Origin: an uncultured Candidatus Saccharibacteria bacterium
GTDB taxonomy: Bacteria > Patescibacteriota > Minisyncoccia > Sungbacterales > HO2-52-23
Reading direction: 5' to 3'
NCBI GenBank assembly: GCA_964358425.1
Contig: CAYHON010000003.1
Location: 1-42,325 of the forward strand
DNA length: 42,325 nucleotides
In this document: positions 15,210-41,048 of the stretch, in pieces
How positions within the stretch are numbered: position 1 is the stretch's first letter
Layout of the letters: every line of letters starts with the position of its first letter
Notes under the pieces: generated by a model
Databases searched by the model: none
What the model was told of the DNA's origin: nothing
What the model saw: only the letters and a program-made list of their open reading frames with translations
Made by a program: the position numbers and the translations under genes

Positions 15210-15242
15210 AAATTCCTTACCGTCACGGAAGGAATTTTTTTT
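15210..15242. terminator. Intrinsic terminator, possibly bidirectional, between convergent genes
   Basis: AAATTCCTT-a-CCG-tca-CGG-AAGGAATTT plus T-run. Confidence 0.75.
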
Positions 15243-15254
15243 GGCTTTTATATA

Positions 15255-16130: not shown

Positions 16131-16142
16131 ATAAATGTATTG

Positions 16143-16171
16143 TTTACAAATTATTTAGATTGTGTTATTTA
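16143..16171 (+). promoter_or_regulatory. Putative sigma70-type promoter for the radical SAM gene
   Basis: TTTACA (16143-16148), 17-nt spacer ending in TGt, TATTTA (16166-16171); SD AGGAG at 16216-16220. Confidence 0.45.
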
Positions 16172-16227
16172 TATATTACGTTCTTTTAGAATATTCTTCA
16201 ATGCCAGTCATAAACAGGAGACAGCAA

Positions 16228-22850: not shown

Positions 22851-24680
22851 ATGTTATTTGAAAAAATACGATATTACTTAAAACGCCACTGGTTAAACTT
22901 AGCCCTTGCCGTTCTGGTGGGCCTTATTTATGTGGGACCGCAGCTTGTTTTTATTTTCTCTCTGGGCGGTGAATATCAGGGAATCCCTATGCTGCAGACG
23001 GCTAACGAGCAAGGTTATCTTGGAAGAATACGGGAAATTATTGACGGATATCCAAAGGTTTCATCTTATCCCTTCTATGAATATAAAGACCAATGGCCCT
23101 TAATGCCGCCTACCGGGGAAATGTTTTATGCTCTTCCCAGCTTGTTGTTGGGTATATCCTTGGTCACTGTGCTTATTGTCAGCAAGTTTATATTGCCACT
23201 CGTCTTATTTTTATTGATTTATTTTTTTATTCTGAAACTGATTGGTGACGTCAATTCTCCGGCTACCAAAATAAGTGCCACTGCTGGTTCTTTATTAATT
23301 CTGCTTGGGTATGATTTGGTAGATTATCACAGTTTGTGGAATTTTCTTTTCGGAGGAAAAAACTTAGGCGGATCATTTTTAATCTGGTCGCGACCGGTAA
23401 ACCCCATATTAGGGGCTATTTTTTTATTTTCTTTTTTATTATGTGTGTGGGCGATTATCCAGAAAACCAAGTATTTAAAAACAACGGTAGTCACCGCCGG
23501 ATTATTTCTGGCGCTTATGATAACCAGCTATTTTTTTAGCTGGGGGCTGGCGGTATCGATTCTGGGAATATTGTTTTTGGTATATTTATACAAACGCGAA
23601 TATCGGATTGTTTGGGCTTTTATATCAATTATCGCGATAGCTCTAGTTTTAACTACTCCTTATTGGTATTTTTCCTATCGCGCGAGTCAAAGCCCGGGGT
23701 ACAGCGAAGCTGTTTTAAGAAGCGGTTTGATATACACCCATTATCCGCTGGTAAACAAACTATTATTAGCGGTTTTGGGTGTTTATCTTATCCTCGTTTT
23801 TACCCCGATCTTGAAAAGGGTTTCTTGGTCAAACATGTTTGAATCATTAAGACAGAATATAAAAGCCGTCTGGCGAGACTGGCATTGGTTTTGTTTAATA
23901 TTAATTTTGGGGAGCTTTTGGGCCCTTAATCAACAGGTTATAACTGGGATAACCATCTGGCCCTATCACTTCGTTCAATATTCGATTCCGCTGGCGATGA
24001 TAGTTTTAGTCTTGTTGTGGCATCACTATATTAGGAAGAAATTTCGTATTTTTTGGATTTTTACAATTATATTCATAATCGGTTCGGCGTTGTTGTTTGG
24101 TCTATATTCTCAAACTTATGCTTATAATAAAAGTTATTCTTATTTTCGTCAATTGCAAATATATACTCATGTTTTCCAATGGCTAAACAAACAACCGAAA
24201 GACTGCGTAGTTTTAGTATACGATACCACGAATTTTTCGTTTAATGAATTAGTGTTGGCGTTTTCCCATTGTAATCTTTATGAGTCCAACGAATTTTTCC
24301 TGCTTATGCCGGAGGATAGGATTTATCACAACTACCTCGTACATCTACGTCTTAAGGGGGTCTCAGCGGATGAAATAGAAAATTATATTCAAGAAAATAA
24401 AGGCGAAATACATAATTATCTATTTAGTAACTGGGCGGGCGCTCATGGTCTTCCGGAATTTCCTGATTTTACCGACCCTAAGCTAGAAGAAAGAATAAAA
24501 AAACTGCCGCAGGACTATCGGCAATTTTTGCAGAAAGAATTCAGAACCGAGCTAAGTAAATACAAATTAGATTATATTCTATCGGCCGGACCCATACCAA
24601 AGAGCGTAATTACCCAATTAGGAAGGTTAAAACTGGAATATCAGCATCAGGATATATCTGTCTATTCTCTGGCGGATTGA
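22851..24680 (+). CDS. Polytopic membrane protein, probable GT-C glycosyltransferase
   Basis: Around a dozen hydrophobic segments; NEQGY after TM1; soluble C-terminal domain; follows a GtrB-like GT2. Confidence 0.6.
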   Translation: MLFEKIRYYLKRHWLNLALAVLVGLIYVGPQLVFIFSLGGEYQGIPMLQTANEQGYLGRIREIIDGYPKVSSYPFYEYKDQWPLMPPTGEMFYALPSLLLGISLVTVLIVSKFILPLVLFLLIYFFILKLIGDVNSPATKISATAGSLLILLGYDLVDYHSLWNFLFGGKNLGGSFLIWSRPVNPILGAIFLFSFLLCVWAIIQKTKYLKTTVVTAGLFLALMITSYFFSWGLAVSILGILFLVYLYKREYRIVWAFISIIAIALVLTTPYWYFSYRASQSPGYSEAVLRSGLIYTHYPLVNKLLLAVLGVYLILVFTPILKRVSWSNMFESLRQNIKAVWRDWHWFCLILILGSFWALNQQVITGITIWPYHFVQYSIPLAMIVLVLLWHHYIRKKFRIFWIFTIIFIIGSALLFGLYSQTYAYNKSYSYFRQLQIYTHVFQWLNKQPKDCVVLVYDTTNFSFNELVLAFSHCNLYESNEFFLLMPEDRIYHNYLVHLRLKGVSADEIENYIQENKGEIHNYLFSNWAGAHGLPEFPDFTDPKLEERIKKLPQDYRQFLQKEFRTELSKYKLDYILSAGPIPKSVITQLGRLKLEYQHQDISVYSLAD

Positions 24681-27253: not shown

Positions 27254-28138
27254 ATGAAAAACTTTTTTATTTTTTTGATCAAGGGTGAATTTGATCCCAA
27301 TAAAATTCAAATTAAGGAAGTTACCGGCACGCTTCATCGCAGCAAAAATTCTGAAGATTTTATAGAAAGAGAGTGGCAAAAAGCCATAACAGCGGGTCTG
27401 AAAATTTGGCCAGGCGATACTAAACCGTCACGCTATCGATATGTTAACTCTCGGGTTAACGGTCCGGTACTGGAAATTGAAGCTGATCCCTGTGTTTGTT
27501 ATCGTGACTATATCGGCTCTAGACCAGTTAAATTATTAAAACAGTTTGGCCGTGATTTTTCGGCAAATTCTGTTACGGTTAATACTCTTCTTTTGGCTAA
27601 AACAGAGTCTGGTCAAGAGCAGATAATGTTGACCATTAGGCGGGCTTCTCACGATTCTAAGGCTGGCGGCTACCACGCAAGTTTGGGGGGCTGTATAGCT
27701 TTGGGAGAAACGCCCAAAGAAGCTATCTTACGTGAAGTTGAGGAAGAAAGCGGGCTTAGTCCCGCAGAGATTAGAAAATTAGTGTGTCAAAATATTATTT
27801 ATGAACCATGGGAAAATACTTACGCTGTTAATTTTTATTCGGAAACAGATGTTGCAGTTGAAAAAATAAAAGAGCGAAAGCATGATTCAGAAAATGAAAT
27901 AATATTTATTGACGCCGACGTCTTTTTGAGGGATAAATTGTTTTTACCTACTGTCCATGCGCTGGTCACTGCTGGTCTGGCCAATATCCTCACTCTTGGC
28001 CGGAAACGATACGACCAAGAGTGGTTCGACGAAGTCGCAGATAATTTGGCCCGGAAGAGTATTGTTTATAATTTATCTCTGGTTCGCCGCTGGTTGGAGA
28101 ATAGGGATGCTAAGAGACTAAAAAATTTTTATTCTTAA
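27254..28138 (+). CDS. Nudix hydrolase with an N-terminal extension
   Basis: Canonical box GGCIALGETPKEAILREVEEESGL. Confidence 0.82.
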   Translation: MKNFFIFLIKGEFDPNKIQIKEVTGTLHRSKNSEDFIEREWQKAITAGLKIWPGDTKPSRYRYVNSRVNGPVLEIEADPCVCYRDYIGSRPVKLLKQFGRDFSANSVTVNTLLLAKTESGQEQIMLTIRRASHDSKAGGYHASLGGCIALGETPKEAILREVEEESGLSPAEIRKLVCQNIIYEPWENTYAVNFYSETDVAVEKIKERKHDSENEIIFIDADVFLRDKLFLPTVHALVTAGLANILTLGRKRYDQEWFDEVADNLARKSIVYNLSLVRRWLENRDAKRLKNFYS

Positions 28139-30443: not shown

Positions 30444-30851
30444 TTGGAAAAGTTTTATTATAAAAAAATACTGGTTGGGTTCAGGGTTAAAACTCTTCCC
30501 GAGGGTTCCGTACCTCTGACCGATAGTAAAGAACCCTTGCAGGTTCTTGCCTTGTGTCATAAAAAAAACGGCCATAGGGTGGCTGCGCACTTTCATACTC
30601 CCAGCAAAAGAATTTCTAATCATCTGCAGGAATGCCTTATTGTCAAAAAGGGTAGGATTAAGATAAGCCTCTACGGTCCAGATCATAAATATTTTAAAAG
30701 TATTCAGCTTAAAAAAGGGGAATTGTTCATTCTCTTATGCGGAGGCTATGGGGTAGATTTTTTGGAGGACTCTGAAGTTTTTGAATTGAAAAACGGGCCG
30801 TTTAAAAATGATAAGGTTATTATTAAAGACGCGAAACAATCTGTTGTGTGA
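30444..30851 (+). CDS. Cupin-fold protein (WbuC-like)
   Basis: AHFH, LQECLIVKKG, GGYGV.FLED..VFELKNGPF; TTG start. Confidence 0.65.
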   Translation: MEKFYYKKILVGFRVKTLPEGSVPLTDSKEPLQVLALCHKKNGHRVAAHFHTPSKRISNHLQECLIVKKGRIKISLYGPDHKYFKSIQLKKGELFILLCGGYGVDFLEDSEVFELKNGPFKNDKVIIKDAKQSVV

Positions 30852-30874: not shown

Positions 30875-31717
30875 TCAGTTTGGCTTGTCGTTTTTCGAGC
30901 AGTATAAATTAAGAAAACCTCTGTCTCCCATAAAGTTCCCCAATTGGGGAATATTTTTTATTTCATTGGGGCCGTTTTGATTTATGGCAAATATTTTTAA
31001 TCCCAAAGAATTCAGCTCTCTTAAGAAATCATCGTTAGTAAAACCGGCCAACTTTATATTTTCTGGACAATATTCAATAAACAAGACTATTTTGGGATTG
31101 GTTTCAATAATTCTTTTCATTCCCCGCAGGGCATATATTTCCCCACCCTCTATATCTATTTTTACAAGATCTATTTTGGGGATATTGTTGTCCTCAGCCC
31201 AGCAATCCAAGGAGATCGAAGATACTTTTATTTGTTCTTGGCGGTAGGTTGCGGGAATAGTACTGTGGCAACCAGCCTTATCGTTGCTGTGATAAAAATC
31301 TATAGCACTGTTTTTATCGGATACGGCGGCTGGTGATAATTTTATATTTTTAAAGCGTCTAGTGTTCGCTTGTAACAATTTAAAATTACTAAGATCTGGC
31401 TCGAAAGCATATACTATCCCAGCGGGCCCGACCAGTTTTGAGAATACTCTGGTAAAATAACCAACATGAGCCCCAATATCTATAACAATCATTCCTGCCC
31501 TGATGATTTTATTTGAAAGATCAGTGGTTTCTTTTTCATACAAATTATTAAGCATATCCAATTTCCATCGGCGGATGTAGTATTGTGGAAATGAATATCC
31601 TCTGACTCTGCTATAGATATTTATCGCAGTGTCTAAAACTCTATAAATAATCTTATCCAGCCACGGGAGATGGAAAATTTTTCTATAAATGTTTCGTATT
31701 GTTGTTATCGGCCGCAT
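30875..31717 (-). CDS. FkbM-family methyltransferase
   Basis: IDIGAHVGYF, YAFEPD, LVKIDIEGGE. Confidence 0.92.
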   Translation of the reverse strand: MRPITTIRNIYRKIFHLPWLDKIIYRVLDTAINIYSRVRGYSFPQYYIRRWKLDMLNNLYEKETTDLSNKIIRAGMIVIDIGAHVGYFTRVFSKLVGPAGIVYAFEPDLSNFKLLQANTRRFKNIKLSPAAVSDKNSAIDFYHSNDKAGCHSTIPATYRQEQIKVSSISLDCWAEDNNIPKIDLVKIDIEGGEIYALRGMKRIIETNPKIVLFIEYCPENIKLAGFTNDDFLRELNSLGLKIFAINQNGPNEIKNIPQLGNFMGDRGFLNLYCSKNDKPN

Positions 31718-31766: not shown

Positions 31767-32042
31767 CTAACTCTTTTGTTTTTTATAATAGTACCAAAAT
31801 ATAAAAAGGTAAATGACCGCTGTAATAATGGCGATGGCGTATTTTATAATAAGCGATAATTGATTTATTAAGAGGGCGTATATTAAGGCAATAATGTTTG
31901 CAGTCAGATATATGATAAATAAAAACAAGCTAACCCCACTGGTGTCTTTTAGTTTGATGGTTTTTATCATCTGCGGTATCAACATCACGGAAAATAAAAA
32001 AGTGGCCACCCACCCCAGCATTTGAGCTAAATCAATCTTCAT
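31767..32042 (-). CDS. SemiSWEET / PQ-loop small transporter
   Basis: 91 aa, three TMs, LIPQMIKTIKLKDTSGVS; start overlaps the upstream stop by 4 nt. Confidence 0.85.
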   Translation of the reverse strand: MKIDLAQMLGWVATFLFSVMLIPQMIKTIKLKDTSGVSLFLFIIYLTANIIALIYALLINQLSLIIKYAIAIITAVIYLFIFWYYYKKQKS

Positions 32043-34828
32043 AATTTATTTCCAGCTGTTAGATAGTCAATTATCTCATTAACATTATCTTCTAATCGTA
32101 TTCCCTCGGTTTTAATTTCGATGTCCGGATTAATCGGGACTTCGTACGGATTTGACGGGCTGATGCCAATAAAATTATTTATCTCTCCCCCCAGTGCTCT
32201 AGCGTATAATCCCTTTACGTCACGTTTTATACAGGTGTTTATATCGGTATTAACGTATACTATATGTATGTTATCCCCAATGATTGAACGAACCGCGTCA
32301 CGATCCTCCTGATACGGAGATATGACTGAAACCAAAACCAGATCATAATCTTTGGCCTTTTCCTTCGCCATATTGGCGATTACAATATTATTTTTTCGCA
32401 CATCTTCTCGTCCAAATCCAAGATGCAGGTGTTTATTATTTCGTATTTCATCCCCGTCTATAATGGTTATACTTTTGCCATTTATTTGTAAAACCCTTTT
32501 TAATTCATTGGCTATGGTTGTTTTTCCAGAACCACTCAAGCCCGTAAACCATATCACCGGCGTCGCCTTATTATCTTTAACAAAAACATCTTCCCCATTC
32601 TTTGCGGCTTGCAAAATTATATCCGAAATTTCCGGACGCATAAACCAATCTGGCGGTGTTTCTCCTTTTTTAAACATAGCGCGGGCTTGTGTCCCGCTGA
32701 TATGCATAGCCGTCTCTTCGACAGCTCCTGGATTTTCATCTTCGTGGACATAGCCGCCCCGTTGGGGAGAGAAAAATACCTTGCCGAATCTTATCGGCTT
32801 TATACCTAAATCGCTAAATTGGTCGAAAATTTCATGGGAGGCGCGTGGCTGATAGAAATCTCCTACGCCGGTATGATCGCGTCCGACAATAAAATGACTG
32901 CAGCCAAAGTTTTTTCTGCACAAGGCTGTAAAGATTGCTTCCCGTGGGCCGGCGTAGCGTGAAAAAGTAGCTAGGGTGGTAAATACAACCTTGTTCTTGG
33001 GATAAAAATCCTCGATCATTTTCATATAACTTCTTACAATAAAGGTTGACTGAAAATCACCGGTCTTTTTCTTGCCGATAACTGGTTGCACGAATAGACC
33101 GTCACAACCGCTTTGTTCCAAGGCCTTTAATTGAATGAATTCATGACTGCGGTGAATGACATTTCTGGTGTGGAAACCGACTACTCTATTCCAGCCCCTT
33201 TCTGAAAACAGCTTACGTACCTGACGGGGGGTCAATTCGTGTTCTTTAAAAACAGACGGTCTTCTCTTGATTAAATTTATTTTCCCTCCCAGCAGGTGTT
33301 CGTGTAGCGTATTCAGATGGCTTACGCCGGGGTGACGCGGGTCATTGGTGCCATATACTTTCAAGGCGAAATCTTTCTTGTTCAATCGATATTTATCCTC
33401 GACCAGCATGGTGGCGATGGTATCACCTAGCTCATTTACCAAGGCTATTTCATCGCCGACTCTAATTCGGTCGTTTTGTTGCGGATTGATGTCCAGGATG
33501 ATTGGAATAGTCCAAACTGTTCCATCAGCCAGGCGCATATTATCCAAAACACCCTGCAGGTCTTGGCTGTTCATAAAGCCTTCCAGCGGACTAAACGTTC
33601 CGACCGCGATCTGCTCTATGTCCATCTGTAAGTTTTGATTCAAGAAAATTTTTTCAAGCGAGTTCAAATAATCCTGGTTAGGAATTTTTTGAATCATTCT
33701 GTTAACCAACTTACCGCCATGGGGAGCAATCAAAGAAGTCGACTCAGCTGCTGCGGATAAATATTTTTCTTCCTCCAATTTTTGGACAATTTTTTCTCGC
33801 AGTTGATGCGTTTCTTCCATGTTGTCCAGTGTAGTCGCTTCTCTGACTACATTTTTCAACATGTTTATGCTTTCCAGGGGATATTTGCCGATAGCCGTTT
33901 CAGCCGACAAAGCCAGCCCCCCCGCCCCGTCTAAAATAGTATTAACGATATCATTGACTTCGGCACGGGTGGGACGTCGGTTATAAACCATACTTTCTAG
34001 AAAATTTGTGGCCACAAAAACTTCTTTACCAAATTTTCTAGCGCGGTTGATAATTATTTTTTGCACAAGCGGTATTTTTTCTATGGGAATTTCTTTACTC
34101 AAATCTCCCCGGTCTAATAATAGATAATCTGACTTAGTGATAATATCATCCAGATTATCCAGGGCTTCCAAGCATTCTATCTTGGAAATAATTTTCATTT
34201 TATTACCAGTTTTGTTTCTGACATAATCAACTGCCGATCCATTCCGCATAAAAGAAGCGGCGATGTGTTTTACCTTTTCTTGTAGACCCAGCTTTATTGA
34301 CTGCGCATCCTTGTCGGATAGGGTGGGTAGATTAATTTTATTTTTAAAGCCAGGATCGACGACAACCGCCTTATTTCTTCCCAGTTTACCTGGTGTAATA
34401 GCTTTGGCTGTAATATAGCCACTTGCAAGGGTTGAGGTGTCGCAAACCTGTAAAGTAAGGGCGGCAAAATCTACGTGCAATAAATCGCCACATTCCAACT
34501 CATTTACTACGTGGCCAGGCTTTAAAGATATTTTTTCTTCATTGCCTATGACCGGTTTGTTATAAATTTTAACAGCATGATTTTCTTCGATGGTGACAAA
34601 GTTTTTACTTAATTCTCCGGTTCTGACCTGGGACCCCTCCGTATCAATGATAAAAGGTATATCAACTTTTTTAGCCAGGCCGACAAAATATTTAAGATCG
34701 TCTATAGATGAATGAGACATGTTTACACGGACAAAATCTACGCCGCGACTTTTTATCTGGTGTAAAACTTTTTCTGAATTGGTAGCTGGGCCCAGGGTTA
34801 CAATAATTTTTATGTTTCCGGTCGACAT
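32039..34828 (-). CDS. Pyruvate kinase - ATP sulfurylase (Sat) - adenylylsulfate kinase (CysC) triple fusion
   Basis: PK about aa 1-330 (IIVTLGPA, RVNMSH, DTEGSQVRTG, ISKIE, DRGDL, PTRAEVND, LSAETAIGKYP); Sat about aa 365-745 (PHGGKL, FSPLEGFM, HTRNVIHRSH, AGPREA, IVGRDH); CysC about aa 755-929 (WFTGLSGSGKTT, DGDEIR, ISPY, RDVKGLY). Confidence 0.92.
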   Translation of the reverse strand: MSTGNIKIIVTLGPATNSEKVLHQIKSRGVDFVRVNMSHSSIDDLKYFVGLAKKVDIPFIIDTEGSQVRTGELSKNFVTIEENHAVKIYNKPVIGNEEKISLKPGHVVNELECGDLLHVDFAALTLQVCDTSTLASGYITAKAITPGKLGRNKAVVVDPGFKNKINLPTLSDKDAQSIKLGLQEKVKHIAASFMRNGSAVDYVRNKTGNKMKIISKIECLEALDNLDDIITKSDYLLLDRGDLSKEIPIEKIPLVQKIIINRARKFGKEVFVATNFLESMVYNRRPTRAEVNDIVNTILDGAGGLALSAETAIGKYPLESINMLKNVVREATTLDNMEETHQLREKIVQKLEEEKYLSAAAESTSLIAPHGGKLVNRMIQKIPNQDYLNSLEKIFLNQNLQMDIEQIAVGTFSPLEGFMNSQDLQGVLDNMRLADGTVWTIPIILDINPQQNDRIRVGDEIALVNELGDTIATMLVEDKYRLNKKDFALKVYGTNDPRHPGVSHLNTLHEHLLGGKINLIKRRPSVFKEHELTPRQVRKLFSERGWNRVVGFHTRNVIHRSHEFIQLKALEQSGCDGLFVQPVIGKKKTGDFQSTFIVRSYMKMIEDFYPKNKVVFTTLATFSRYAGPREAIFTALCRKNFGCSHFIVGRDHTGVGDFYQPRASHEIFDQFSDLGIKPIRFGKVFFSPQRGGYVHEDENPGAVEETAMHISGTQARAMFKKGETPPDWFMRPEISDIILQAAKNGEDVFVKDNKATPVIWFTGLSGSGKTTIANELKRVLQINGKSITIIDGDEIRNNKHLHLGFGREDVRKNNIVIANMAKEKAKDYDLVLVSVISPYQEDRDAVRSIIGDNIHIVYVNTDINTCIKRDVKGLYARALGGEINNFIGISPSNPYEVPINPDIEIKTEGIRLEDNVNEIIDYLTAGNKL

Positions 34829-34838: not shown

Positions 34839-36350
34839 TTATTTAGCAGGTAGGTTTAGCTTCTGGGCGATATAGTTTACTAAAGGAGACAACTGATCCC
34901 CCTTTTTATCCATATTTGCCGCTCCTTCTACGTCCCACATCCTTACGATGTCCATTATGGCTGATTCTTGGCAGATGGCGGTAAGCATATTAAGTAGTTC
35001 CTTCTCGTTGTGTTTATGGTTAGTCAACTGGTCCCTAACAATAAAGGGAAGTATTTCCGGGTTAGAGCAGTGTTTTACCGCGGATAATTCGTTATAAAAT
35101 ACCTTGCCGAAAGTTATAACCGGCTTTTTAAAAAGAATACTTTCCCAACCGCCACTTCCGGTGGTAGTGATGGTTAGTTTTGTGCGCCTGATAAGGTCAA
35201 AACTTTTCAGAGTCGGTCTGACAATTTTTACATTAGGTATTTTTTTTAATTCTTTATAATACTTGTGAGTGCGAAAACCAAACATGGCCGGATGCTCCTT
35301 TATGTAAAGTTTGTAATTGGCGGGCAGGGAGCGGGCAAAAAGTTTGGCCAACCATAATTGGTCCGTATAAAAAGGCGCGTATAGCATACTAGCTTTTTCC
35401 GGCTCATACTGCAGGGGAAAAAAGGCGTAATCTTCCGTGTAGTCAGGCTCGTCATAGAATTTTTCAAAACCGACCAATATGCGCAGCTTTCTTCTTATTT
35501 TATCAATAAGATAGTGCCACGGTTTGACCGTATCATAGTCGTCACGATGTGGATTTAACAGATAATTTTTCCATACGGTAAAGATCCAAGATATTCCACG
35601 GATTAAATTATTAGGTATAAGGAATTTAAATTGCTTGCGCCTAGTTACCGGTTTCAAATCCGGGGTGTCTATATTACTATAGGGTGTGGGCTTATTCCTG
35701 AATTCATTAAGAAAGGTCTGGGCTTCTTGGTGGTATCTGGGGTCGGCATTTTGGCCGCTTTGTAGTTTTTTAAAAACATCTATAACATAACTGAACGTTC
35801 CATATTCCTGACTGACGGTCTGTCTGATACCGACCCGGGTTTGGTACAAAACTAGAGTTTTTATGCCCCTCTTGCGGGCTATTTCGTAAAGCAGCATATC
35901 GGCGATGCCGCCGACCAAAGAAAAAATAACCACCTCGGGCTTTTCCTCATCAAAGAACTTTATGATAGCTCGGGCTCTGATTTGTAGTATTTTCAACATT
36001 TCTTCGTGGGTGTAAGAAGGTGTATCATAAGGATATTCCCGTAAAAACATGTTGTAGCGGACGATTCTGTCGATATATATATATGGCCAGAGGTTGGGCA
36101 GTCCATAATTTTCTTCCAAAGAGCGCAGAAAATCTAAATCTAGTTTCTCAGTTTTATACTGTTTATGAATTTCTTCATCGTGCAGTAATTGAGTGTACTT
36201 TATATCCGTCTGTGATTTTAAGAAATTAAAGCTTGAGCGCATGTAAGAGTATCCGCAGAATTCTTTGACGCCATAATCTTCCTTCAGAATTTTGGCTATC
36301 TCATGGCCGATATAAGCAAACCTCCTCTGTAGCAAAAAACATATTTTCAT
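34839..36350 (-). CDS. Capsule polysaccharide biosynthesis/modification protein, KpsS-like; possible CMP-ulosonate transferase
   Basis: YAFFPLQYEPE, LYIKEHP, TTTGSGGWES.LFKKPVITFG..FY. Confidence 0.65.
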   Translation of the reverse strand: MKICFLLQRRFAYIGHEIAKILKEDYGVKEFCGYSYMRSSFNFLKSQTDIKYTQLLHDEEIHKQYKTEKLDLDFLRSLEENYGLPNLWPYIYIDRIVRYNMFLREYPYDTPSYTHEEMLKILQIRARAIIKFFDEEKPEVVIFSLVGGIADMLLYEIARKRGIKTLVLYQTRVGIRQTVSQEYGTFSYVIDVFKKLQSGQNADPRYHQEAQTFLNEFRNKPTPYSNIDTPDLKPVTRRKQFKFLIPNNLIRGISWIFTVWKNYLLNPHRDDYDTVKPWHYLIDKIRRKLRILVGFEKFYDEPDYTEDYAFFPLQYEPEKASMLYAPFYTDQLWLAKLFARSLPANYKLYIKEHPAMFGFRTHKYYKELKKIPNVKIVRPTLKSFDLIRRTKLTITTTGSGGWESILFKKPVITFGKVFYNELSAVKHCSNPEILPFIVRDQLTNHKHNEKELLNMLTAICQESAIMDIVRMWDVEGAANMDKKGDQLSPLVNYIAQKLNLPAK

Positions 36351-36379
36351 AAAGTCTATAATTACGATTAGAAAAAATT

Positions 36380-36408
36380 ATTATAGGCGGATTATTGTTT
36401 AAAATCAA
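36380..36408 (-). promoter_or_regulatory. Promoter for the leftward operon (KpsS-like, PK-Sat-CysC, SemiSWEET, FkbM)
   Basis: Minus strand TTGATT, 17 nt, TATAAT. Confidence 0.65.
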
Positions 36409-36426
36409 TTTTTCTTTAGGTATAAT
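36398..36426 (+). promoter_or_regulatory. Promoter for the rightward sulfotransferase-neu operon
   Basis: TTTAAA, 17 nt, TATAAT (36421-36426); overlaps the divergent promoter. Confidence 0.55.
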
Positions 36427-36599
36427 AGCGTCTTTATTCAGAATTTAAAAATATTTGTCTCAGTCCCCCGTAGATAACAGTTTATATAACTCTCAAAAAC
36501 CGTAAAAAGCTTCAAAATTAAAGGGTTGTTTGAGGGGTATCTAATAAGTTCGTTTTGGCAACCAAATCAAGTAAATCCGTGTTCTAATTAGAGACGCTA
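36426..36599. mobile_element. Candidate MITE / IS remnant with imperfect 18-bp inverted ends including outer TA
   Basis: Left TAGCGTCTTTATTCAGAA (36426-36443) versus reverse complement of the right end TAGCGTCTCTAATTAGAA (36582-36599): 15/18 match; no credible gene inside. Confidence 0.5.
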
Positions 36600-36613
36600 A
36601 AAAGGGGGTAATT

Positions 36614-37588
36614 ATGAAAAGAAAAAATAAAATTATTCTGTGGAAGCGTGGATACCTGGTCAAAAAACTGCTGCTTATAGATGGCATGGGTCGGGCTGGA
36701 AAATTCTTGGCCGCCAATATTTTAAACGGATTTGCCGATATTGAACCGGTCCAGCTTTGCAGTCTTTTGGAGCACTTGCCCTTTTTTGCCAAACTCGGCT
36801 TGATTCAACAACAGGTGGCTCAAGAATTAATTCACAATGAAATTGATATGCGTTGTTACGAAATGCTTATCGGCCGCAACCTAAACCATCGGCTTTTTGA
36901 CAAATCATCAATCTTTAACCTATCCAACCACCGGGATTTACTTTTGAGATCCAAGGAACCTGACCGGGACAAAGAACTTAAAAAATTTTATAAACGAGGA
37001 ACTTATAGTTTTTTTTTAGTACATGAGATTTTGTCGGAGATTCGGATTTATTTCAAAGCCTTTCCGCAGGTTAAGGTCATTACTTTAAAAAGAAGTCCGA
37101 TTGACCTGGTCTACTCGTGGTATAAGAACCAATCAATTACTCGCTGTGGGATTGATCCTAAATATTTTACTATTCCGCTGAAAGGATTTAAAGGACCGGT
37201 GCCATGGTATCATTATAAAAATTTTAAAGAATACGAATCCCTTAATAACATGGACCGTATTGTTGCCACTATAGAAAAATTGTTTCAAAGATATGAGAAG
37301 GCGGAGAAAGAGTTCTCCGTTGGTGAAAAGAAAAAAATATTGTTTTTGCGCTATGAAGATATTCTTGGTCGGACCGGAGAGGTTATAAAAAAGATACAAA
37401 AGTTTCTAAATAAAAAACCCCTAAAAGAAATGGGCCAGATTTTAAAGAGAGAAAAATTGCCTAATCGGGAGTATTCGGATGTTTCGTCTAAAAAACAAAA
37501 GATTGCGGTGATTAAAGCCCGAGCCTCAGCCCGTTATTTCAACAAACTAATGGTTTTAGAAAATAAATATTTTAAAGATGCCGACTAA
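36614..37588 (+). CDS. Sulfotransferase-fold (P-loop) protein
   Basis: LLIDGMGRAGKFL (5'-PSB-like loop), LKRSPIDLVYSWY (3'-PB motif), LRYED; near PAPS synthesis. Confidence 0.7.
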   Translation: MKRKNKIILWKRGYLVKKLLLIDGMGRAGKFLAANILNGFADIEPVQLCSLLEHLPFFAKLGLIQQQVAQELIHNEIDMRCYEMLIGRNLNHRLFDKSSIFNLSNHRDLLLRSKEPDRDKELKKFYKRGTYSFFLVHEILSEIRIYFKAFPQVKVITLKRSPIDLVYSWYKNQSITRCGIDPKYFTIPLKGFKGPVPWYHYKNFKEYESLNNMDRIVATIEKLFQRYEKAEKEFSVGEKKKILFLRYEDILGRTGEVIKKIQKFLNKKPLKEMGQILKREKLPNREYSDVSSKKQKIAVIKARASARYFNKLMVLENKYFKDAD

Positions 37589-38294
37589 AAGAAAAAAAAT
37601 ACTGGCTATTATTCCGGCTCGGGGCAATTCCAAGGGAATACCCCTAAAAGCTATAAAGAGTTTTTGTGGAAAACCGATGATTTATTATACTTTGAAAGAA
37701 GCTAAAAAATCAGGCGTTTTTGACAAAATAGCGGTTTCCACCGATTCATCTAAAATTGCCGCCTTGGCTAAAAAACTAGGAGCGGAGGTTCCCTATTTGC
37801 GCCCCGAACATCTTGCTCGGGACAATTCAAGAGTGGCGGATGCCGTGATTCACCTGCTTAAATTTTTACAAGCACGCGAAGGATACAAGCCGGATATAAT
37901 CTTTCTGCTCCAAGTTACTTCACCATTGAGAGATTCAACCGATATCCTTGAGAGTTATGAAATGTTTTGCAGAGAAAAAGCTGTGGCTCTAACCTCTGTT
38001 TGTAAAAAGAAAAACCAGATTTTGAATATTGGCGGGGGGCGGATAGAGACTATCAAGGGAGGGGTTTTAAACCGCGAAAGCAGTCCAGATGCCTTTGAAC
38101 AGGACGGAATGATTTATATAATTGACGCTCAATTTTTTTTGAAACATAAAATTTTTGAGCCAGAGGGTAAAACTATTGCCTATATTCCATCCAGATGGAA
38201 ATCAGTTGATATTGATGACAAGGAAGATTTTATTTTAGCCGAGGTTCTTTATAAGAACAGAACTATTTTAAAAAAATATGAAAAGCTGGGATAA
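37578..38294 (+). CDS. neuA: Acylneuraminate/nonulosonate cytidylyltransferase
   Basis: IIPARGNSKGIP, VSTDS, LRPEHLA, LLQVTSPLR, SVDIDD. Confidence 0.9.
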   Translation: MPTKRKKILAIIPARGNSKGIPLKAIKSFCGKPMIYYTLKEAKKSGVFDKIAVSTDSSKIAALAKKLGAEVPYLRPEHLARDNSRVADAVIHLLKFLQAREGYKPDIIFLLQVTSPLRDSTDILESYEMFCREKAVALTSVCKKKNQILNIGGGRIETIKGGVLNRESSPDAFEQDGMIYIIDAQFFLKHKIFEPEGKTIAYIPSRWKSVDIDDKEDFILAEVLYKNRTILKKYEKLG

Positions 38295-38871
38295 AAACTG
38301 GGAAAAGACTTTCCGAAACAAAGAATGGGGGAAATATCCTCCCGAGGAATTGATTCGTTTTATAGCCCGTAATTATTATTCTGTGTCCCAAAGAAGCAAG
38401 ATAAAGATTCTAGATTTGGGGTGTGGAACGGGGGCGGCGGTCTGGTATATGGCGCGCAAAGGGTTTGCGGTGGCGGGGGTTGATGGCTCTAAAACTGCCA
38501 TTAAGATTGCTCGTCAAAGATTTAGAGAGGAAAAATTTAAGGCTGACTTAAGGATTGGTGATGTTATTAAACTTGATTATTCGGATAGATATTTTGATGC
38601 CGTTACGGATATTGCTTGCATTCAATGTAATTTTCAACTAAGTAATGTAAAAAAAATAATTAGTGAGGTTTACCGGGTATTAAAACCCGGGGGCAAATTT
38701 TTTGGAACCATGATAGCCAAAGGAATTGAAGATTGGCCCAAACAATCGCACTTTTTTAAACGTGATGAAATAAGGCGTTTATTTTCTGGATTTAGTAATC
38801 TGAAAATTGAATATGTAATAAGAAGTCATCATAAAGCCGAAAAACTCTGGCTAGTGGAGGCCGTTAAGTAA
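38278..38871 (+). CDS. Class I SAM-dependent methyltransferase
   Basis: WGKYPPEELIRF, ILDLGCGTG, RVLKPGG. Confidence 0.88.
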   Translation: MKSWDKNWEKTFRNKEWGKYPPEELIRFIARNYYSVSQRSKIKILDLGCGTGAAVWYMARKGFAVAGVDGSKTAIKIARQRFREEKFKADLRIGDVIKLDYSDRYFDAVTDIACIQCNFQLSNVKKIISEVYRVLKPGGKFFGTMIAKGIEDWPKQSHFFKRDEIRRLFSGFSNLKIEYVIRSHHKAEKLWLVEAVK

Positions 38872-38874
38872 TTT

Positions 38875-39918
38875 ATGGTTAAATACAAAAATACTTTTGC
38901 TAAAGAAATTCATATTGGTCCTAAAACCGTGCGCGAGAACGGTCCTTGTTTTATCATTGCTGAGGCCGGGCTTAATCACAACGGAAACCTTGAGCTTGCC
39001 AAAAAACTAATTGATGTTGCCGTGGAAGCTGGAGCAGATGCGGTAAAATTCCAGACTTTTAAGGCGGAAGAGGAAAATACCAAAAAATTATCCGCCTATC
39101 TGGAGATGATTAAAAAAATGGAGTTTGGTGAGGAAGATCATAAGGTTTTGATTGATTATTGCCAAAAAAAAAATATTATATTTCTTTCTACCCCCTCGGA
39201 AGAAATTAGCGCGGACTTGTTACAAAAACTTAAGGTACCGGCGTTTAAAATTGCTTCTAATGATATAGTGACCACTCCAATGCTGGTCAAGATTGCTAAG
39301 TTTGGTAAACCCATGATTGTTTCTACGGGTATGGCCGAACTTGGGGAGATAGGAGAGGCTGTAGATGTGATTAGGTCTTCGGGCAATAGGGATTTAATTC
39401 TTCTACACTGTACTTCCAGTTATCCAACACCACTAAAAGACCTAAATCTTAGGGTGATGGAAACCCTAAAAAAGGAATTCGGTTCGCTGGTCGGATTTTC
39501 GGACCACAGTGAAGGTTTAGAAGCGGCGCCTTTGGCTGTTCTTTTGGGGGCGGTGATAATTGAAAAGCATTTTACGCTGGACAAAAATATGTCGGGACCA
39601 GATCACAAGATGTCCCTTTTGCCCAAGGAACTTAAAGAGTTGGTTAAAAGAATTCGCCACGCGGAGAAAATGCGGGTTATATTGGGAAGTTTTATCAAAA
39701 AACCGACAGCGATGGAATTGAAAGTACGAAAAATAACTCGCAAGGGGATTGTGGCGCGAAGAGCTATTAAAAAAGGGGAGGTGATAAAAATATCCATGTT
39801 AGCCTACAAGCGTCCCGCTTTGGGTATCTCCCCAAAATTTTACAGGCAGATATTGGGTCGTAAGACGAAAGTTGATTTAGCCAAGGATGAATTTATAGAA
39901 AAAAAATTCCTGTCATGA
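38875..39918 (+). CDS. neuB: Nonulosonic acid synthase (NeuB/LegI/PseI family) with a C-terminal SAF domain
   Basis: IIAEAGLNHNG, DAVKFQ, FKIAS, LHCTSSYP, GFSDHS, IEKHFTLD, KRP..GI. Confidence 0.93.
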   Translation: MVKYKNTFAKEIHIGPKTVRENGPCFIIAEAGLNHNGNLELAKKLIDVAVEAGADAVKFQTFKAEEENTKKLSAYLEMIKKMEFGEEDHKVLIDYCQKKNIIFLSTPSEEISADLLQKLKVPAFKIASNDIVTTPMLVKIAKFGKPMIVSTGMAELGEIGEAVDVIRSSGNRDLILLHCTSSYPTPLKDLNLRVMETLKKEFGSLVGFSDHSEGLEAAPLAVLLGAVIIEKHFTLDKNMSGPDHKMSLLPKELKELVKRIRHAEKMRVILGSFIKKPTAMELKVRKITRKGIVARRAIKKGEVIKISMLAYKRPALGISPKFYRQILGRKTKVDLAKDEFIEKKFLS

Positions 39919-41048
39919 AAAAAATAGTTTATGTCACGGGTTCACGCGCCGAGTATGGTCTGATGAAAGAATTGCTTTTTAAGATGCACAAAAGCGGTAA
40001 ATTTGATGTTTCTCTGATTGTAACCGGTATGCACCTAAGCCATAAGTATGGATGGACCTTGCAGCAAATAAAAAAAGATGGTTTACGGATAGCGGATGAA
40101 ATAGACATCCACATAGAAAAAAGTACAAATGCGGGCATGGCCGAATCGATAGGTTATGGGATTATTGGTATGACTAAGGCTCTTGTTAAAGATAAACCGG
40201 ATTTGGTTATGGTTACGGGGGATCGGGGGGAACTCTTGGCCGCAGCTATCGCCGCTGCTCATTTGAACATACCCGTTGCCCATATCTCAGGTGGAGATAT
40301 TACCACAGGAGCTAACATAGATGAACGTATCCGCCACGCTATTACTAAATTTTCTAGTGTACACTTCGCCGAAAGCGACAAGAGCGCGACCAATCTTATT
40401 CGTTGGGGCGAGAATAAAAAGTTTGTATTTGCCGTGGGAAACCCGGGGGTATCTTCGCTTCCCAAATTTAGTTTTCGGGAAAAATCAGCTTTGGCTAAAA
40501 AATACAAGCTTAATTTACGACAACCTATTTTATTGGCGGTACAACATCCGGTTACTACCCAAACAGATCAAGCCGGAGTACAGATGAAGGAGACGATGGA
40601 GGCTTTGAAAAAACTTGGAATGCAAACCGTACTAATATATCCAAACTCTGACGCCGGTAGCCGGGCTATGATCGCAATCATAAAAAAATATAGAAAATTA
40701 CCCTTCATCCGCATTTTTAAAAGTATTCCTCGTCATGATTTCCTGGGACTGATGAGTCTGGCTAGCGCTATGATAGGTAATTCCAGCAGCGCTCTTTTTG
40801 AGGCCCCGTCGTTTAATTTGCCGGCGATTAATCTGGGTTTAAGAGAAGAGGGGCGGGAACGGGCAGTCAATATAATTGACGCAGATCACAGTACCCCCAG
40901 CATTGTGACTGCTGTCCGTCGAGCTCTGAAACCCGAATTCAGGAAGAAAATGATAAGTGTCAAAAACCCTTACGCTAAACCGAACACCGATAAGAAAATA
41001 ATAAAAATATTATTGACCAGATGGAAAGATATAATTTCCGGGTATTGA
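39915..41048 (+). CDS. neuC: Hydrolysing NDP-N-acetylhexosamine 2-epimerase (NeuC/LegG)
   Basis: VTGSRAEYG, VTGMHL, GDRGE, IDERIRHAITK, QHPVT, YPNSD, GNSSS. Confidence 0.92.
   Translation: MKKIVYVTGSRAEYGLMKELLFKMHKSGKFDVSLIVTGMHLSHKYGWTLQQIKKDGLRIADEIDIHIEKSTNAGMAESIGYGIIGMTKALVKDKPDLVMVTGDRGELLAAAIAAAHLNIPVAHISGGDITTGANIDERIRHAITKFSSVHFAESDKSATNLIRWGENKKFVFAVGNPGVSSLPKFSFREKSALAKKYKLNLRQPILLAVQHPVTTQTDQAGVQMKETMEALKKLGMQTVLIYPNSDAGSRAMIAIIKKYRKLPFIRIFKSIPRHDFLGLMSLASAMIGNSSSALFEAPSFNLPAINLGLREEGRERAVNIIDADHSTPSIVTAVRRALKPEFRKKMISVKNPYAKPNTDKKIIKILLTRWKDIISGY

What the first reader, a model, noticed from the sequence alone, without database searches (positions are those of the whole stretch)
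32039..34828. Pyruvate kinase-ATP sulfurylase-APS kinase triple fusion: a candidate ATP-regenerating PAPS synthase
Seen: one 929-aa frame has a PK catalytic barrel (about 34828-33840), a linker of about 35 aa, a Sat domain (from about 33735) and a CysC domain (from about 32567), each with recognisable motifs. Established: Sat-CysC fusions make PAPS, use two ATP and release ADP, and the Sat step is thermodynamically unfavourable; PK converts PEP + ADP to ATP. I do not recall a characterised PK-Sat-CysC protein. Inference: the PK domain recycles ADP from APS kinase, tying PEP directly to production of the sulfo donor for the nearby sulfotransferase. That would suit a fermentative, energy-limited organism.
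Basis: partly seen in the sequence, partly recalled or inferred. Interest (0 to 1): 0.9.

Follow-up and report, generated by a model that had tools for sequence, protein, structure and literature searches.

The report
Pyruvate kinase fused to PAPS synthase
One gene joins a stripped-down pyruvate kinase to the two enzymes that make the cell's activated-sulfate donor, a combination found in many microbial phyla that probably lets phosphoenolpyruvate pay for part of the ATP cost of sulfation.

Summary
Window 32039-34828 (-) is one intact 929-aa frame: pyruvate kinase barrel with lid but no C-terminal regulatory domain, helical linker, ATP sulfurylase, APS kinase. Independently assembled contigs bridge both junctions.

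It is not unique. All 120 best protein clusters share PK+sulfurylase, and 82 also carry APS kinase. All 80 best genome loci share it, from CPR bacteria and DPANN archaea to Chloroflexota, Acidobacteriota and cultured rhizobia.

The PK belongs to its own clade, separate from housekeeping PKs (SH-aLRT 100). Catalytic residues are invariant and a private signature surrounds them.

This clade is joined to sulfate activation repeatedly: PK-Sat-CysC, PK-Sat with adjacent cysC, Sat-CysC-PK-Sat, PK-CysC, and stand-alone PK beside cysC.

Best reading (about 0.6): PEP-driven ATP supply and ADP removal for PAPS synthesis, feeding the conserved neighbouring sulfotransferase. Bench PAPS synthesis needs the same PK/PEP trick. 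Activity is inferred, not shown.

Eight of my nine literature searches looked for the fusion and none found it. Novelty: new variant of a known kind. Interest about 0.6.

The parts
32039..34828 (-). Whole 929-aa ORF: PK - linker - ATP sulfurylase - APS kinase
   Evidence: ORF. (domains). (AlphaFold2 model, mean pLDDT 88.6, pTM 0.78).
33866..34813 (-). Pyruvate kinase barrel (A domain plus B lid), residues 6-321. No C-terminal regulatory domain.
   Evidence: PF00224, E 2e-72; same coordinates; best solved relatives are true pyruvate kinases, aligned over the A and B domains only; catalytic residues are invariant in 73 of 73 members of the clade.
34319..34621 (-). PK lid (B) subdomain, about residues 70-170. 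Predicted contact surface with the sulfurylase.
   Evidence: all-beta stretch at 68-158; the predicted interface residues 82-83, 112-130, 144-146 and 158-162 lie here.
33731..33865 (-). Linker, residues 322-366, with a helix at 337-353 and a conserved L-E-x-x-N-Y-L element
   Evidence: secondary structure. (consensus; Y356 nearly invariant); the same motif ends the stand-alone PK P0125 and precedes CysC in P0160.
33263..33730 (-). PUA-like N-terminal domain of ATP sulfurylase, residues 367-522
   Evidence: PF14306, E 5.7e-47.
32609..33241 (-). ATP sulfurylase catalytic domain, residues 530-740
   Evidence: PF01747, E 3.5e-75. TIGR00339 scores 362 bits against a cut-off of 323. F552, H553, T554, R555, N556, H559, H562 and G649, R650, D651, H652 are invariant.
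32111..32557 (-). APS kinase domain, residues 758-906
   Evidence: PF01583, E 2e-44. TIGR00455 scores 162 bits against a cut-off of 139; this is the only APS kinase found in the genome.
34839..36350 (-). Upstream gene of the same strand, 10 nt from the fusion's ATG: Capsule_synth-family protein, 503 aa
   Evidence: PF05159. (spacing); a homologue lies in the flanks of the fusion in 12 of 80 genome loci.
31767..32042 (-). Downstream 91-aa PQ-loop / SemiSWEET-like membrane protein. Its ATG overlaps the fusion's stop codon (ATGA).
   Evidence: PF04193. (overlap); a homologue lies in 6 of 80 loci, 3 of them within 10 nt.
30875..31717 (-). FkbM-type methyltransferase, last gene of the minus-strand run
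   Evidence: PF05050.
36614..37588 (+). Sulfotransferase, divergently transcribed. Presumed consumer of the PAPS.
   Evidence: PF00685, E 1.2e-11; the only Sulfotransfer_1 match in the genome; a homologue (34-61% identity) lies beside the fusion in 13 of 80 loci, 9 of them within 35 nt.
36351..36613 (.). Divergent intergenic region between the two gene runs, with the best promoter-like matches of the scanned stretch on both strands
   Evidence: 10-of-12 matches at 36408-36380 (-) and 36398-36426 (+). This is weak: 25 sites were found in the region against 19.1 +/- 4.1 in shuffles.

Best explanation
The ORF encodes a three-enzyme PAPS factory. Its C-terminal 563 residues are an ordinary bacterial-type ATP sulfurylase-APS kinase:
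- sulfate + ATP -> APS + PPi
- APS + ATP -> PAPS + ADP

Its N-terminal 366 residues are a pyruvate kinase of a separate clade. This clade has lost the allosteric C domain and is found almost only with sulfate-activation genes.

Most likely the PK module turns ADP back into ATP at the expense of PEP. That ADP is the ADP released by APS kinase, plus ADP of the cell pool. The net reaction would be sulfate + ATP + PEP -> PAPS + PPi + pyruvate.

This would keep ATP high and ADP low wherever the enzyme is made. [quoted passage not shown] It would also spare the sulfurylase site, which binds ADP like APS.

The PAPS would serve the neighbouring sulfotransferase of a 42-kb surface-glycan locus. The PPi can be used by the genome's membrane proton-pumping pyrophosphatase.

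Shown here: the architecture, intact catalytic residues, the separate clade, repeated independent fusions and gene adjacency, and a predicted docked arrangement.

Inferred: every enzyme activity, the ADP-to-ATP coupling, and the sulfated product.
For: Architecture and integrity.

The PK part aligns with solved pyruvate kinases at E 1e-56. Residues R34, N36, S38, H39, D62, G65, R69, K153, K216, E218, R240, D242 and E310 are kept in 73 of 73 clade members, and T274 in 70 of 73. Their catalytic roles are recalled from the PK literature.

The PK part is as conserved as the sulfurylase part across homologues: 37-67% against 42-67% identity. This argues for purifying selection.

Separate clade: 73 sulfate-associated PK domains split from 14 housekeeping PKs of the phylum and from the genome's own second PK, with SH-aLRT 100.

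Repeated association with sulfate activation:
- All 120 of the 120 best clusters carry PK+PUA_2+sulfurylase, and 82 also carry APS kinase.
- Sat-CysC-PK-Sat order in P0005.
- Direct PK-CysC fusions in P0158, P0160 and P0223.
- Among 80 genome loci: 18 triple in one frame, 25 PK-Sat with cysC within 300 nt, 11 with cysC farther away in the flank.
- Among 39 stand-alone PKs of the clade: 14 have cysC within 300 nt.

The C-terminal part matches the solved bifunctional SAT/APS kinase 2gks over its whole length, E 1e-102.

Biochemical rationale from papers (passages read):
- Without PK/PEP regeneration, human PAPSS1 gave an ADP peak and almost no PAPS (PMC9885120).

The genome can make PEP: enolase lies on contig 17.

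Consumer: the sulfotransferase is adjacent here, and its homologue is adjacent in 13 of 80 loci.

Docking: complex prediction of PK (1-340) against Sat-CysC (367-929) scored 0.76, with the best of 3 controls at 0.00. That mark was reached by 58 of 80 solved complexes and 2 of 110 mismatched pairs. The runs agree in at least 98% of contacts, and the partner's pLDDT is at least 88. My own alignment was used, so the counts hold only roughly. The full-length AlphaFold2 model has pTM 0.78.
Against: No activity has been measured for any member.

The commonest form is PK-Sat. In 26 of 80 genome loci no cysC was seen in the fetched flanks. Of 10 such genomes searched whole, 2 gave no APS kinase match and 1 gave only a weak one of 24 bits. 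These may be incomplete assemblies. ADP from CysC therefore cannot be the only reason for the fusion, because the sulfurylase step itself releases no ADP.

Small molecules diffuse fast. Fusion alone does not create a private ATP/ADP pool unless there is real channelling, which is untested.

The clade has private substitutions next to catalytic residues: E64, Q67, D239, S244, K/R245 and N275. Their effect is unknown and they could mean altered specificity or regulation.

The predicted contact uses the mobile lid domain. This could hinder rather than help PK turnover.

21 of 39 stand-alone clade members showed no sat or cysC in the fetched flanks, 8 of them with at least 2 kb on both sides.

No PAP phosphatase of the CysQ or DHH type was found in this genome, and no SulP sulfate carrier. 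The pathway around the enzyme is incomplete as seen.
Confidence: 0.6

Rival explanations
1. The selected partnership is PK with ATP sulfurylase, not with APS kinase. The unregulated PK is simply made in step with an ATP-hungry, thermodynamically uphill first step. It raises ATP and lowers competing ADP for APS synthesis in general, for assimilation as well as sulfation. The CysC fusion in this window is a secondary add-on.
For: PK-Sat is the form shared by all 80 genome loci, and 62 of them lack a fused CysC. 38 of the 120 best clusters are PK-Sat only. The predicted contact of the PK lid is with the sulfurylase domain, residues 378-380, 409, 521-544 and 602-615, not with CysC. ADP binds the sulfurylase site like APS (PMC3734648 passage).
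Against: Direct PK-CysC fusions without Sat exist. So do 14 stand-alone PK genes within 300 nt of cysC with no Sat hit nearby. 54 of 80 PK-Sat loci have cysC fused or in the flank. The sulfurylase reaction neither makes nor uses ADP, so PK has no direct product link to it.
Confidence: 0.18
2. The PK module is no longer a plain pyruvate kinase. It might be a PEP- or nucleotide-sensing regulatory or scaffolding domain, or an enzyme with changed acceptor or cation needs. It would control or organise the sulfurylase rather than regenerate ATP.
For: The clade lacks the C domain.

It carries a private signature beside the metal and substrate residues. D239 occurs in 73 of 73 members against A in 14 of 14 housekeeping PKs. 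S244, K/R245, N275, E64 and Q67 also differ.

The pattern T63/E64/Q67/T70 fits neither the K+-dependent signature (T113/K114/E117/T120) nor the K+-independent one (L113/Q114/K117) given in the abstracts of PMC8835810 and PMC4284704.

The mobile lid is predicted to be pinned to the sulfurylase.

Fungal ATP sulfurylase already shows that a kinase-like domain can become a regulatory module (recalled).
Against: Every residue known to bind PEP, Mg2+, K+ and the nucleotide phosphates is invariant or nearly so in 73 sequences from many phyla. This is not expected for a mere scaffold. The whole domain scores as a full-length PK barrel, profile 4-328 of 328.
Confidence: 0.12
3. The PK part is the organism's ordinary glycolytic pyruvate kinase that happens to be fused. 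There is no functional tie to sulfation.
For: The genome's other PK-like gene (contig 17) lacks the lid domain and three conserved residues: S38->F, H39->W, R69->Q. The fused one is therefore the only complete PK barrel found in this genome.
Against: The fused PK does not group with housekeeping PKs of the phylum. In a sample of 401 genomes of the phylum, only this genome and one other have a PK joined to Sat. Most of the other matching genomes are hit only by a PK at 30-39% identity. The same clade is fused or adjacent to sat or cysC in many unrelated phyla.
Confidence: 0.05
4. Assembly or gene-calling artefact: two or three neighbouring genes wrongly joined.
For: The genome is a draft of 83 contigs. 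In related loci the Sat|CysC boundary is often a real stop codon, for example a TAG directly followed by an ATG in L024.
Against: Contigs from three runs of two studies cross both junctions without a difference. 18 other genomes have the same single frame. 82 protein clusters carry all three families.
Confidence: 0.01

Closest known systems
Bacterial bifunctional ATP sulfurylase-APS kinase (Sat-CysC PAPS synthase; solved example 2gks, 'Bifunctional SAT/APS kinase')
   Same: Residues 388-923 align over the whole 2gks chain, E 1e-102. The domain order is the same: sulfurylase, then kinase. The domain models TIGR00339 and TIGR00455 are both passed.
   Different: This protein carries an extra 366-residue pyruvate kinase at the N-terminus. 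It scores below the cut-off of the full-length equivalog NF004040 (450 against 669 bits).
APS kinase-ATP sulfurylase-pyrophosphatase triple fusion of diatoms (Patron et al. 2008, as cited in PMC3734648)
   Same: It has the same logic: a third enzyme fused to the sulfate-activating pair that removes a by-product and pulls the pathway (passage read).
   Different: There the third enzyme is a pyrophosphatase, which removes PPi. Here it is a pyruvate kinase, which would remove ADP and give back ATP. No pyrophosphatase domain is present. The domain order and the lineage (eukaryotes) also differ.
Bench PAPS synthesis with PK/PEP ATP regeneration (for example PMC9885120)
   Same: It uses the same three activities in one pot. 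PK/PEP removed ADP and was reported to be necessary for PAPS formation by PAPSS1 (passages read).
   Different: That is an artificial mixture of separate, unrelated enzymes. Here one natural polypeptide carries all three, with a dedicated PK clade.
Canonical pyruvate kinase (EC 2.7.1.40; PykF/PykA, PKM)
   Same: Full-length match to the A+B barrel. Catalytic, Mg2+ and K+ site residues are conserved.
   Different: There is no C-terminal allosteric/tetramer domain. It scores below the TIGR01064 cut-off (294.9 against 306.4 bits). It forms a separate clade with private substitutions, and its lid is predicted to dock on another enzyme.
Metazoan PAPS synthase (PAPSS1/2)
   Same: It also makes PAPS from two fused activities. 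Its APS kinase domain is a relative (1x6v, E 1e-50).
   Different: The domain order is opposite (kinase first), and there is no PK.

Membership tests
Pyruvate kinase (Pfam PF00224 barrel; NCBIfam TIGR01064) | Full-length match to the A-domain TIM barrel with inserted B (lid) domain | tested here: met
   PF00224, E 2e-72, profile positions 4-328 of 328; aligned with solved PKs over residues 6-349.
Pyruvate kinase (Pfam PF00224 barrel; NCBIfam TIGR01064) | Residues that bind PEP, Mg2+, K+ and the nucleotide phosphates, and the catalytic lysine (roles recalled from the literature) | tested here: met
   R34, N36, S38, H39, D62, R69, K153, K216, E218, D242 and E310 are invariant in 73 of 73 clade members, and T274 in 70 of 73.
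Pyruvate kinase (Pfam PF00224 barrel; NCBIfam TIGR01064) | C-terminal alpha/beta domain (PF02887) and a score over the full-length equivalog cut-off | tested here: not met
   One search lists no PF02887. TIGR01064 scores 294.9 bits against a cut-off of 306.4, matching profile positions 3-365 of 476 only.
Pyruvate kinase (Pfam PF00224 barrel; NCBIfam TIGR01064) | Catalysis of PEP + ADP -> pyruvate + ATP | not testable with these tools
   This needs an enzyme assay.
ATP sulfurylase, Sat type (PF14306 + PF01747; TIGR00339) | PUA-like plus catalytic domain over the curated cut-off, with conserved active-site motifs | tested here: met
   E 5.7e-47 and E 3.5e-75. TIGR00339 scores 362.2 against 322.95, and NF003166 scores 428.3 against 387; the H-T-R-N...H...H and G-R-D-H stretches are invariant.
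APS kinase (PF01583; TIGR00455) | Full-length match over the cut-off, with a P-loop | tested here: met
   E 2e-44, profile positions 4-152 of 152. TIGR00455 scores 162.4 against 138.7. The P-loop G-L-S-G-S-G-K-T-T is seen in the translation and in the consensus.
Bifunctional Sat/CysC equivalog (NCBIfam NF004040) | Score over the equivalog cut-off | tested here: not met
   450.2 bits against a cut-off of 669. It has the same architecture as 2gks but is a divergent lineage.
APSK-ATPS-pyrophosphatase triple fusion (diatoms) | Inorganic pyrophosphatase domain in the same chain | tested here: not met
   One search lists no pyrophosphatase family. One search finds no PF00719 anywhere in the genome.
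Sulfate-activation-associated PK clade (proposed here) | Groups apart from housekeeping PKs; signature E64, Q67, D239, S244, K/R245, N275; no C domain | tested here: met
   one clade, SH-aLRT 100, and the window protein lies inside it; the window protein has all six signature residues.

The most novel reading that the evidence does not exclude
The PK is not just co-expressed but docked. Its lid domain would sit on the sulfurylase, so that the three active sites form one PEP-driven machine with real hand-over of nucleotide: ADP from APS kinase goes straight to PK, and ATP goes back. PK turnover would be gated by the state of the sulfurylase.

That would make this widespread family the first natural biosynthetic enzyme with built-in substrate-level ATP regeneration. 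It could run the kinase step on catalytic amounts of adenylate.

A bolder variant: in lineages where PK-Sat sits beside the sulfotransferase and no APS kinase was found, the altered PK site might do chemistry on a sulfonucleotide itself.
Probability: 0.2. Interest if true: 0.8.

Novelty: new variant of a known kind. Interest (0 to 1): 0.6.

Why it matters
Sulfate activation is costly. It uses two ATP, has an uphill first step, and has a second step that is poisoned by its own product ADP.

If this reading is right, many microbes from at least a dozen phyla solved the problem with the same trick that chemists use at the bench, a PK/PEP regeneration module. They dedicated a separate, unregulated pyruvate kinase lineage to it.

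Three consequences would follow:
1. A new functional class would be added to a textbook glycolytic enzyme family.
2. Annotation pipelines call these proteins 'pyruvate kinase' or 'sulfate adenylyltransferase'. This would be a warning against counting every PK hit as glycolysis in small-genome organisms.
3. It would offer a compact one-protein PAPS generator for enzymatic sulfation.

It is directly testable, because cultured organisms carry homologues: Ensifer sp. BR816, a Mesorhizobium strain and [Flexibacter] sp. ATCC 35103, and Ensifer adhaerens and Sinorhizobium chiapasense.

For this organism it points to a sulfated, methylated surface glycan that contains a nonulosonic acid.

Tried and rejected
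Misassembly was considered and rejected.

A housekeeping origin of the PK was considered and rejected by the tree.

Expression: no RNA holder was listed for the stretch, so nothing can be said about expression.

Promoters: the best promoter-like sites lie in the divergent gap at 36351-36613. The scan as a whole is barely above shuffles (25 against 19.1 +/- 4.1), so I give it little weight.

Interface check: I asked whether the predicted PK-Sat contact residues are more conserved in Sat-fused forms than in forms without Sat.
- Mean column entropy at contact positions: 1.87 against 2.31.
- Mean column entropy at other lid positions: 1.92 against 2.09.
The direction fits, but the effect is small and confounded by relatedness. 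It is inconclusive.

Public annotation: two rhizobial replicons hold a homologue, but the plasmid collection's feature table had no entry there. I could not see how RefSeq names it.

CysC-less genomes: I considered that the sulfotransferase might use APS directly. The window's sulfotransferase shows an R-S-P-x-D-x-x-x-S stretch like the 3'-phosphate-binding motif of PAPS-dependent enzymes (motif recalled; sequence). Missing cysC in incomplete assemblies therefore seems more likely. This is left open.

Classification bugs: a first classification of loci misfiled L025 because a tblastn hit ran past the stop codon. One search showed this. One search crashed on a script error. One search is the corrected count used here.

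Labels: some loci labelled PSC in the tree (for example L090 and L093) are in fact PK-Sat plus a separate adjacent cysC. The tree's count of label changes is therefore only rough.

Literature: of nine searches, sought only the PK K+-site signatures. The other eight found no paper that describes a PK joined to Sat or CysC. Subscription journals and supplements were not searchable.

Not used: the search of protein representatives, fold search, the protein-atlas search and the third homologue search.

Full report
THE OBSERVATION

Window 32039-34828 on the minus strand is a single ATG-started frame of 929 codons.

Pfam finds four domains:
- a full-length pyruvate kinase barrel (residues 6-321, E 2e-72, profile 4-328 of 328);
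- the PUA-like domain of ATP sulfurylase (367-522);
- the sulfurylase catalytic domain (530-740, E 3.5e-75);
- an APS kinase domain (758-906, E 2e-44).

NCBIfam agrees. The sulfurylase and APS kinase domain models are passed (362 against 323 bits, and 162 against 139). The full-length pyruvate kinase model is just missed (294.9 against 306.4), because only positions 3-365 of 476 are matched. The C-terminal allosteric domain of pyruvate kinase is absent.

The linker is about 45 residues. In the AlphaFold2 model it holds a helix at 337-353.

Both domain junctions are crossed, without a single difference, by contigs assembled independently from public runs:
- X1, 1758 nt, over the Sat/CysC junction;
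- X2, 933 nt, over the PK/Sat junction;
- X4, 171 nt, from a second study, also over the PK/Sat junction.
X1 and X2 may be the source samples. The holders are labelled groundwater metagenomes.

HOW COMMON IT IS

The protein is far from unique.
- A search of 5.8 billion proteins listed 120 best clusters (50-64% identity to the window protein apart from its own entry; the last still at about 1000 bits). All 120 carry PK + PUA_2 + ATP-sulfurylase, and 82 of them also carry APS kinase. Sources name them only 'sulfate adenylyltransferase' or 'pyruvate kinase'.
- A scan of one genome per prokaryote species found 547 relatives. The best 80 loci all hold PK joined to the sulfurylase.
- Record titles name many candidate-phyla-radiation groups (Falkow-, Komeili-, Pacei-, Yanofsky-, Sungii-, Giovannoni-, Harrison-, Staskawicz- and Magasanikbacteria) and DPANN archaea (Nanoarchaeia, Woese- and Pacearchaeota).
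- They also name Chloroflexota, Acidobacteriota, Planctomycetota, Omnitrophota, Gemmatimonadota, Myxococcota, Latescibacterota, Bdellovibrionota and Bacteroidota.
- Cultured isolates carry it too: [Flexibacter] sp. ATCC 35103, a Mesorhizobium strain and Ensifer sp. BR816. Two more rhizobial replicons turned up in the plasmid collection.

Within the window's own phylum it is patchy. In a sample of 401 genomes, only this genome (1-929) and one other (8-751) have PK joined to Sat among the listed matches. About ten others have Sat or Sat-CysC without PK. The patchiness, together with 55-64% identity to proteins of other phyla and of archaea, points to lateral spread.

WHAT FORMS IT TAKES

I checked reading frames in the 80 genome loci (correcting):
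- 18 have PK-Sat-CysC in one frame;
- 25 have PK-Sat with a separate cysC gene within 300 nt (in L024 the stop TAG is directly followed by the ATG of cysC);
- 11 have cysC farther away in the fetched flank;
- 26 show no cysC in the flank (3 of these frames run off the contig).

I searched ten of these last genomes whole. Seven have a strong APS kinase elsewhere, one has a weak match, and two small assemblies have none.

Other orders exist. P0005 (1341 aa) reads Sat-CysC-PK-Sat, and P0079 adds a nucleotidyltransferase in front of PK-Sat.

A search with the PK part alone brought up direct PK-CysC fusions without any sulfurylase: P0158, P0160 and P0223 (PK 2-318, APS kinase 359-509). It also brought up stand-alone PKs of 337-365 residues with the same sequence character.

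I fetched 80 metagenome loci around such stand-alone forms and classified them:
- 41 PK-Sat: 10 with cysC within 300 nt, 2 farther away;
- 39 stand-alone PK: 14 with cysC within 300 nt, 4 with sat or cysC farther away, 21 with none seen;
- of those 21, 13 have a flank under 2 kb.

THE PK IS ITS OWN LINEAGE

I built a tree of 88 PK domains (IQ-TREE, LG+G4, quick search, SH-aLRT only). All 73 sulfate-associated domains fall on one side of a branch with support 100. On the other side are 14 housekeeping PKs of the phylum and this genome's own second PK.

Architectures are interleaved in the tree, so fusion and fission happened repeatedly. The exact count is unreliable, because some locus rows were labelled triple when cysC is a separate gene.

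Residues known from the literature (recalled) to bind PEP, Mg2+, K+ and the nucleotide, and the catalytic lysine, are kept in 73 of 73 members, and T274 in 70 of 73.

The clade has a private signature next to them:

| Position | Sulfate-associated clade | Housekeeping PKs |
|---|---|---|
| 64 | E, 69 of 73 | mostly Q |
| 67 | Q, 70 of 73 | K, R or E |
| 239 | D, 73 of 73 | A, 14 of 14 |
| 244 | S, 69 of 73 | mostly G |
| 245 | K or R, 71 of 73 | V or I |
| 275 | N, 70 of 73 | mostly Q |

By motif alignment, positions 63, 64, 67 and 70 correspond to rabbit 113, 114, 117 and 120. The pattern T/E/Q/T fits neither the K+-dependent signature (T/K/E/T) nor the K+-independent one (L/Q/K) given in the abstracts found. 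What this does to the enzyme is unknown.

THE REST OF THE PROTEIN AND THE MODEL

Residues 368-929 match the solved bifunctional SAT/APS kinase 2gks along its whole chain, E 1e-102. The active-site stretches of the sulfurylase are invariant in the family alignment.

The full-length AlphaFold2 model is confident: mean pLDDT 88.6, pTM 0.78.

I split the protein into PK (1-340) and Sat-CysC (367-929), and the complex predictor supports binding:
- score 0.76, with the best of 3 controls at 0.00;
- this mark was reached by 58 of 80 solved complexes and 2 of 110 mismatched pairs;
- the runs agree in at least 98% of contacts, and the partner's pLDDT is at least 88;
- my own alignment was used, so the counts hold only roughly.

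The contact is between the PK lid domain (82-83, 112-130, 144-146, 158-162) and the sulfurylase (378-380, 409, 521-544, 602-615). No solved chain matched both parts, so the pass is unlikely to be from memory. It is still a model, not a measurement.

A conservation check of the contact was inconclusive.

CONTEXT

The fusion is the second gene of a minus-strand run:
- a Capsule_synth-family protein, whose stop lies 10 nt before the fusion's ATG;
- the fusion;
- a 91-aa PQ-loop membrane protein, whose ATG overlaps the fusion's stop;
- an FkbM methyltransferase.

Across a 263-nt gap, a sulfotransferase starts the opposite run. It is followed by a cytidylyltransferase, a methyltransferase, NeuB and a UDP-GlcNAc 2-epimerase, which is a nonulosonic-acid pathway.

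The whole window is a glycan-synthesis island.

The sulfotransferase is the only Sulfotransfer_1 match in the genome, and the fusion holds the only APS kinase.

Homologues of this same sulfotransferase lie beside the fusion in 13 of the 80 genome loci, 9 of them within 35 nt. The Capsule_synth homologue lies there in 12 loci, and the PQ-loop protein in 6. Part of this neighbourhood therefore travels as a cassette.

The genome has enolase, a source of PEP, and a membrane proton-pumping pyrophosphatase. I found no soluble pyrophosphatase, no CysQ- or DHH-type PAP phosphatase and no SulP carrier. Marker-gene completeness is 99%, in 83 contigs.

HOW IT MOST LIKELY WORKS

The three reactions add up to sulfate + ATP + PEP -> PAPS + PPi + pyruvate.

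Papers I read in passages give the rationale:
- In vitro, human PAPSS1 without a PK/PEP system gave an ADP peak and almost no PAPS. With the system, ADP vanished and PAPS rose (PMC9885120).

The genomic pattern says that evolution arrived at the same coupling several times with one dedicated PK lineage. The dominance of PK-Sat, and the predicted lid-sulfurylase contact, say that the sulfurylase is at least an equal partner.

I put about 0.6 on PEP-driven ATP supply and ADP removal for the whole activation pathway. I put about 0.18 on a Sat-centred version, and about 0.12 on an altered or regulatory PK module. The rest goes to trivial explanations.

None of the activities has been measured.

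COMPARISON AND NOVELTY

The closest known things are:
- the bacterial Sat-CysC enzyme (same body, no PK);
- the diatom APS kinase-sulfurylase-pyrophosphatase fusion (same logic, different helper enzyme);
- the bench cascade with PK/PEP (same chemistry, separate enzymes).

Eight of my nine full-text searches looked for a paper that describes a pyruvate kinase fused or linked to sulfate activation, and none found one. sought only the PK K+-site signatures. Subscription journals and supplementary files were outside reach.

I file it as a new variant of a known kind. It is interesting because it is widespread, unnamed and easy to test in cultured hosts.

Noticed in passing
Own genome, contig 17 (L002 1432-2886, minus strand); enolase at L002 183-1478: The genome's second PK-like gene is itself a fusion. 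A histidine-phosphatase/phosphoglycerate-mutase domain (residues 8-205) is joined to a PK barrel that lacks the whole lid domain and the C domain. It also has F, W and Q at three otherwise invariant positions (38, 39 and 69 of the window protein). It lies directly upstream of enolase. The full-length fusion was found only in this genome among 41 genomes of the class.
   Followed up: partly
window 31767-32042 (-): A 91-aa PQ-loop / SemiSWEET-like membrane protein is translationally coupled to the fusion (ATGA overlap). Homologues sit beside the fusion in 6 of 80 other loci, with up to 77% identity. No SulP sulfate carrier was found in the genome, so a role in sulfate uptake or pyruvate export is conceivable but untested.
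   Followed up: partly
window 37578-41048 (+): The genes for a CMP-sugar cytidylyltransferase, a methyltransferase, a NeuB-family synthase and a UDP-GlcNAc 2-epimerase form a nonulosonic (sialic-like) acid pathway next to the sulfotransferase. NeuB-type enzymes also consume PEP (recalled).
   Followed up: no
P0005 (1341 aa) and P0079 (1019 aa), proteins: Larger relatives exist. P0005 reads sulfurylase-APS kinase-PK-sulfurylase, with two sulfurylase copies. P0079 has an N-terminal MobA-like nucleotidyltransferase before PK-Sat. Loci L040, L047 and L050 also hold a second, 29-33% identical sulfurylase-like copy next to cysC.
   Followed up: partly
Own genome, contig 25, 1541-3511 (-): A membrane proton-pumping pyrophosphatase is present (869 bits). 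No soluble family-I pyrophosphatase, no DHH-family protein and no CysQ-type phosphatase was found. How PAP is removed after sulfotransfer is unexplained. A NUDIX protein lies at window 27254-28138.
   Followed up: partly
window 22851-24680 (+), 30444-30851 (+), 11267-12091 (+), 135-665 (+): Four ORFs of 609, 135, 274 and 176 aa inside the glycan island have no Pfam match at the thresholds used.
   Followed up: no
window 12117-17760: A GHMP kinase, a SIS-domain isomerase, a HAD phosphatase and a transaldolase-family gene lie in a row, which looks like a heptose or other sugar-phosphate route. They are followed by a B12-binding radical SAM enzyme in the same glycan island.
   Followed up: no
L069 and L075 (genomes G403, G404): Two small assemblies (0.8-0.9 Mb) have PK-Sat directly followed by the sulfotransferase homologue. 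No APS kinase match was found anywhere in these genomes. Either the assemblies are incomplete, or the route to the sulfo donor is different there.
   Followed up: partly
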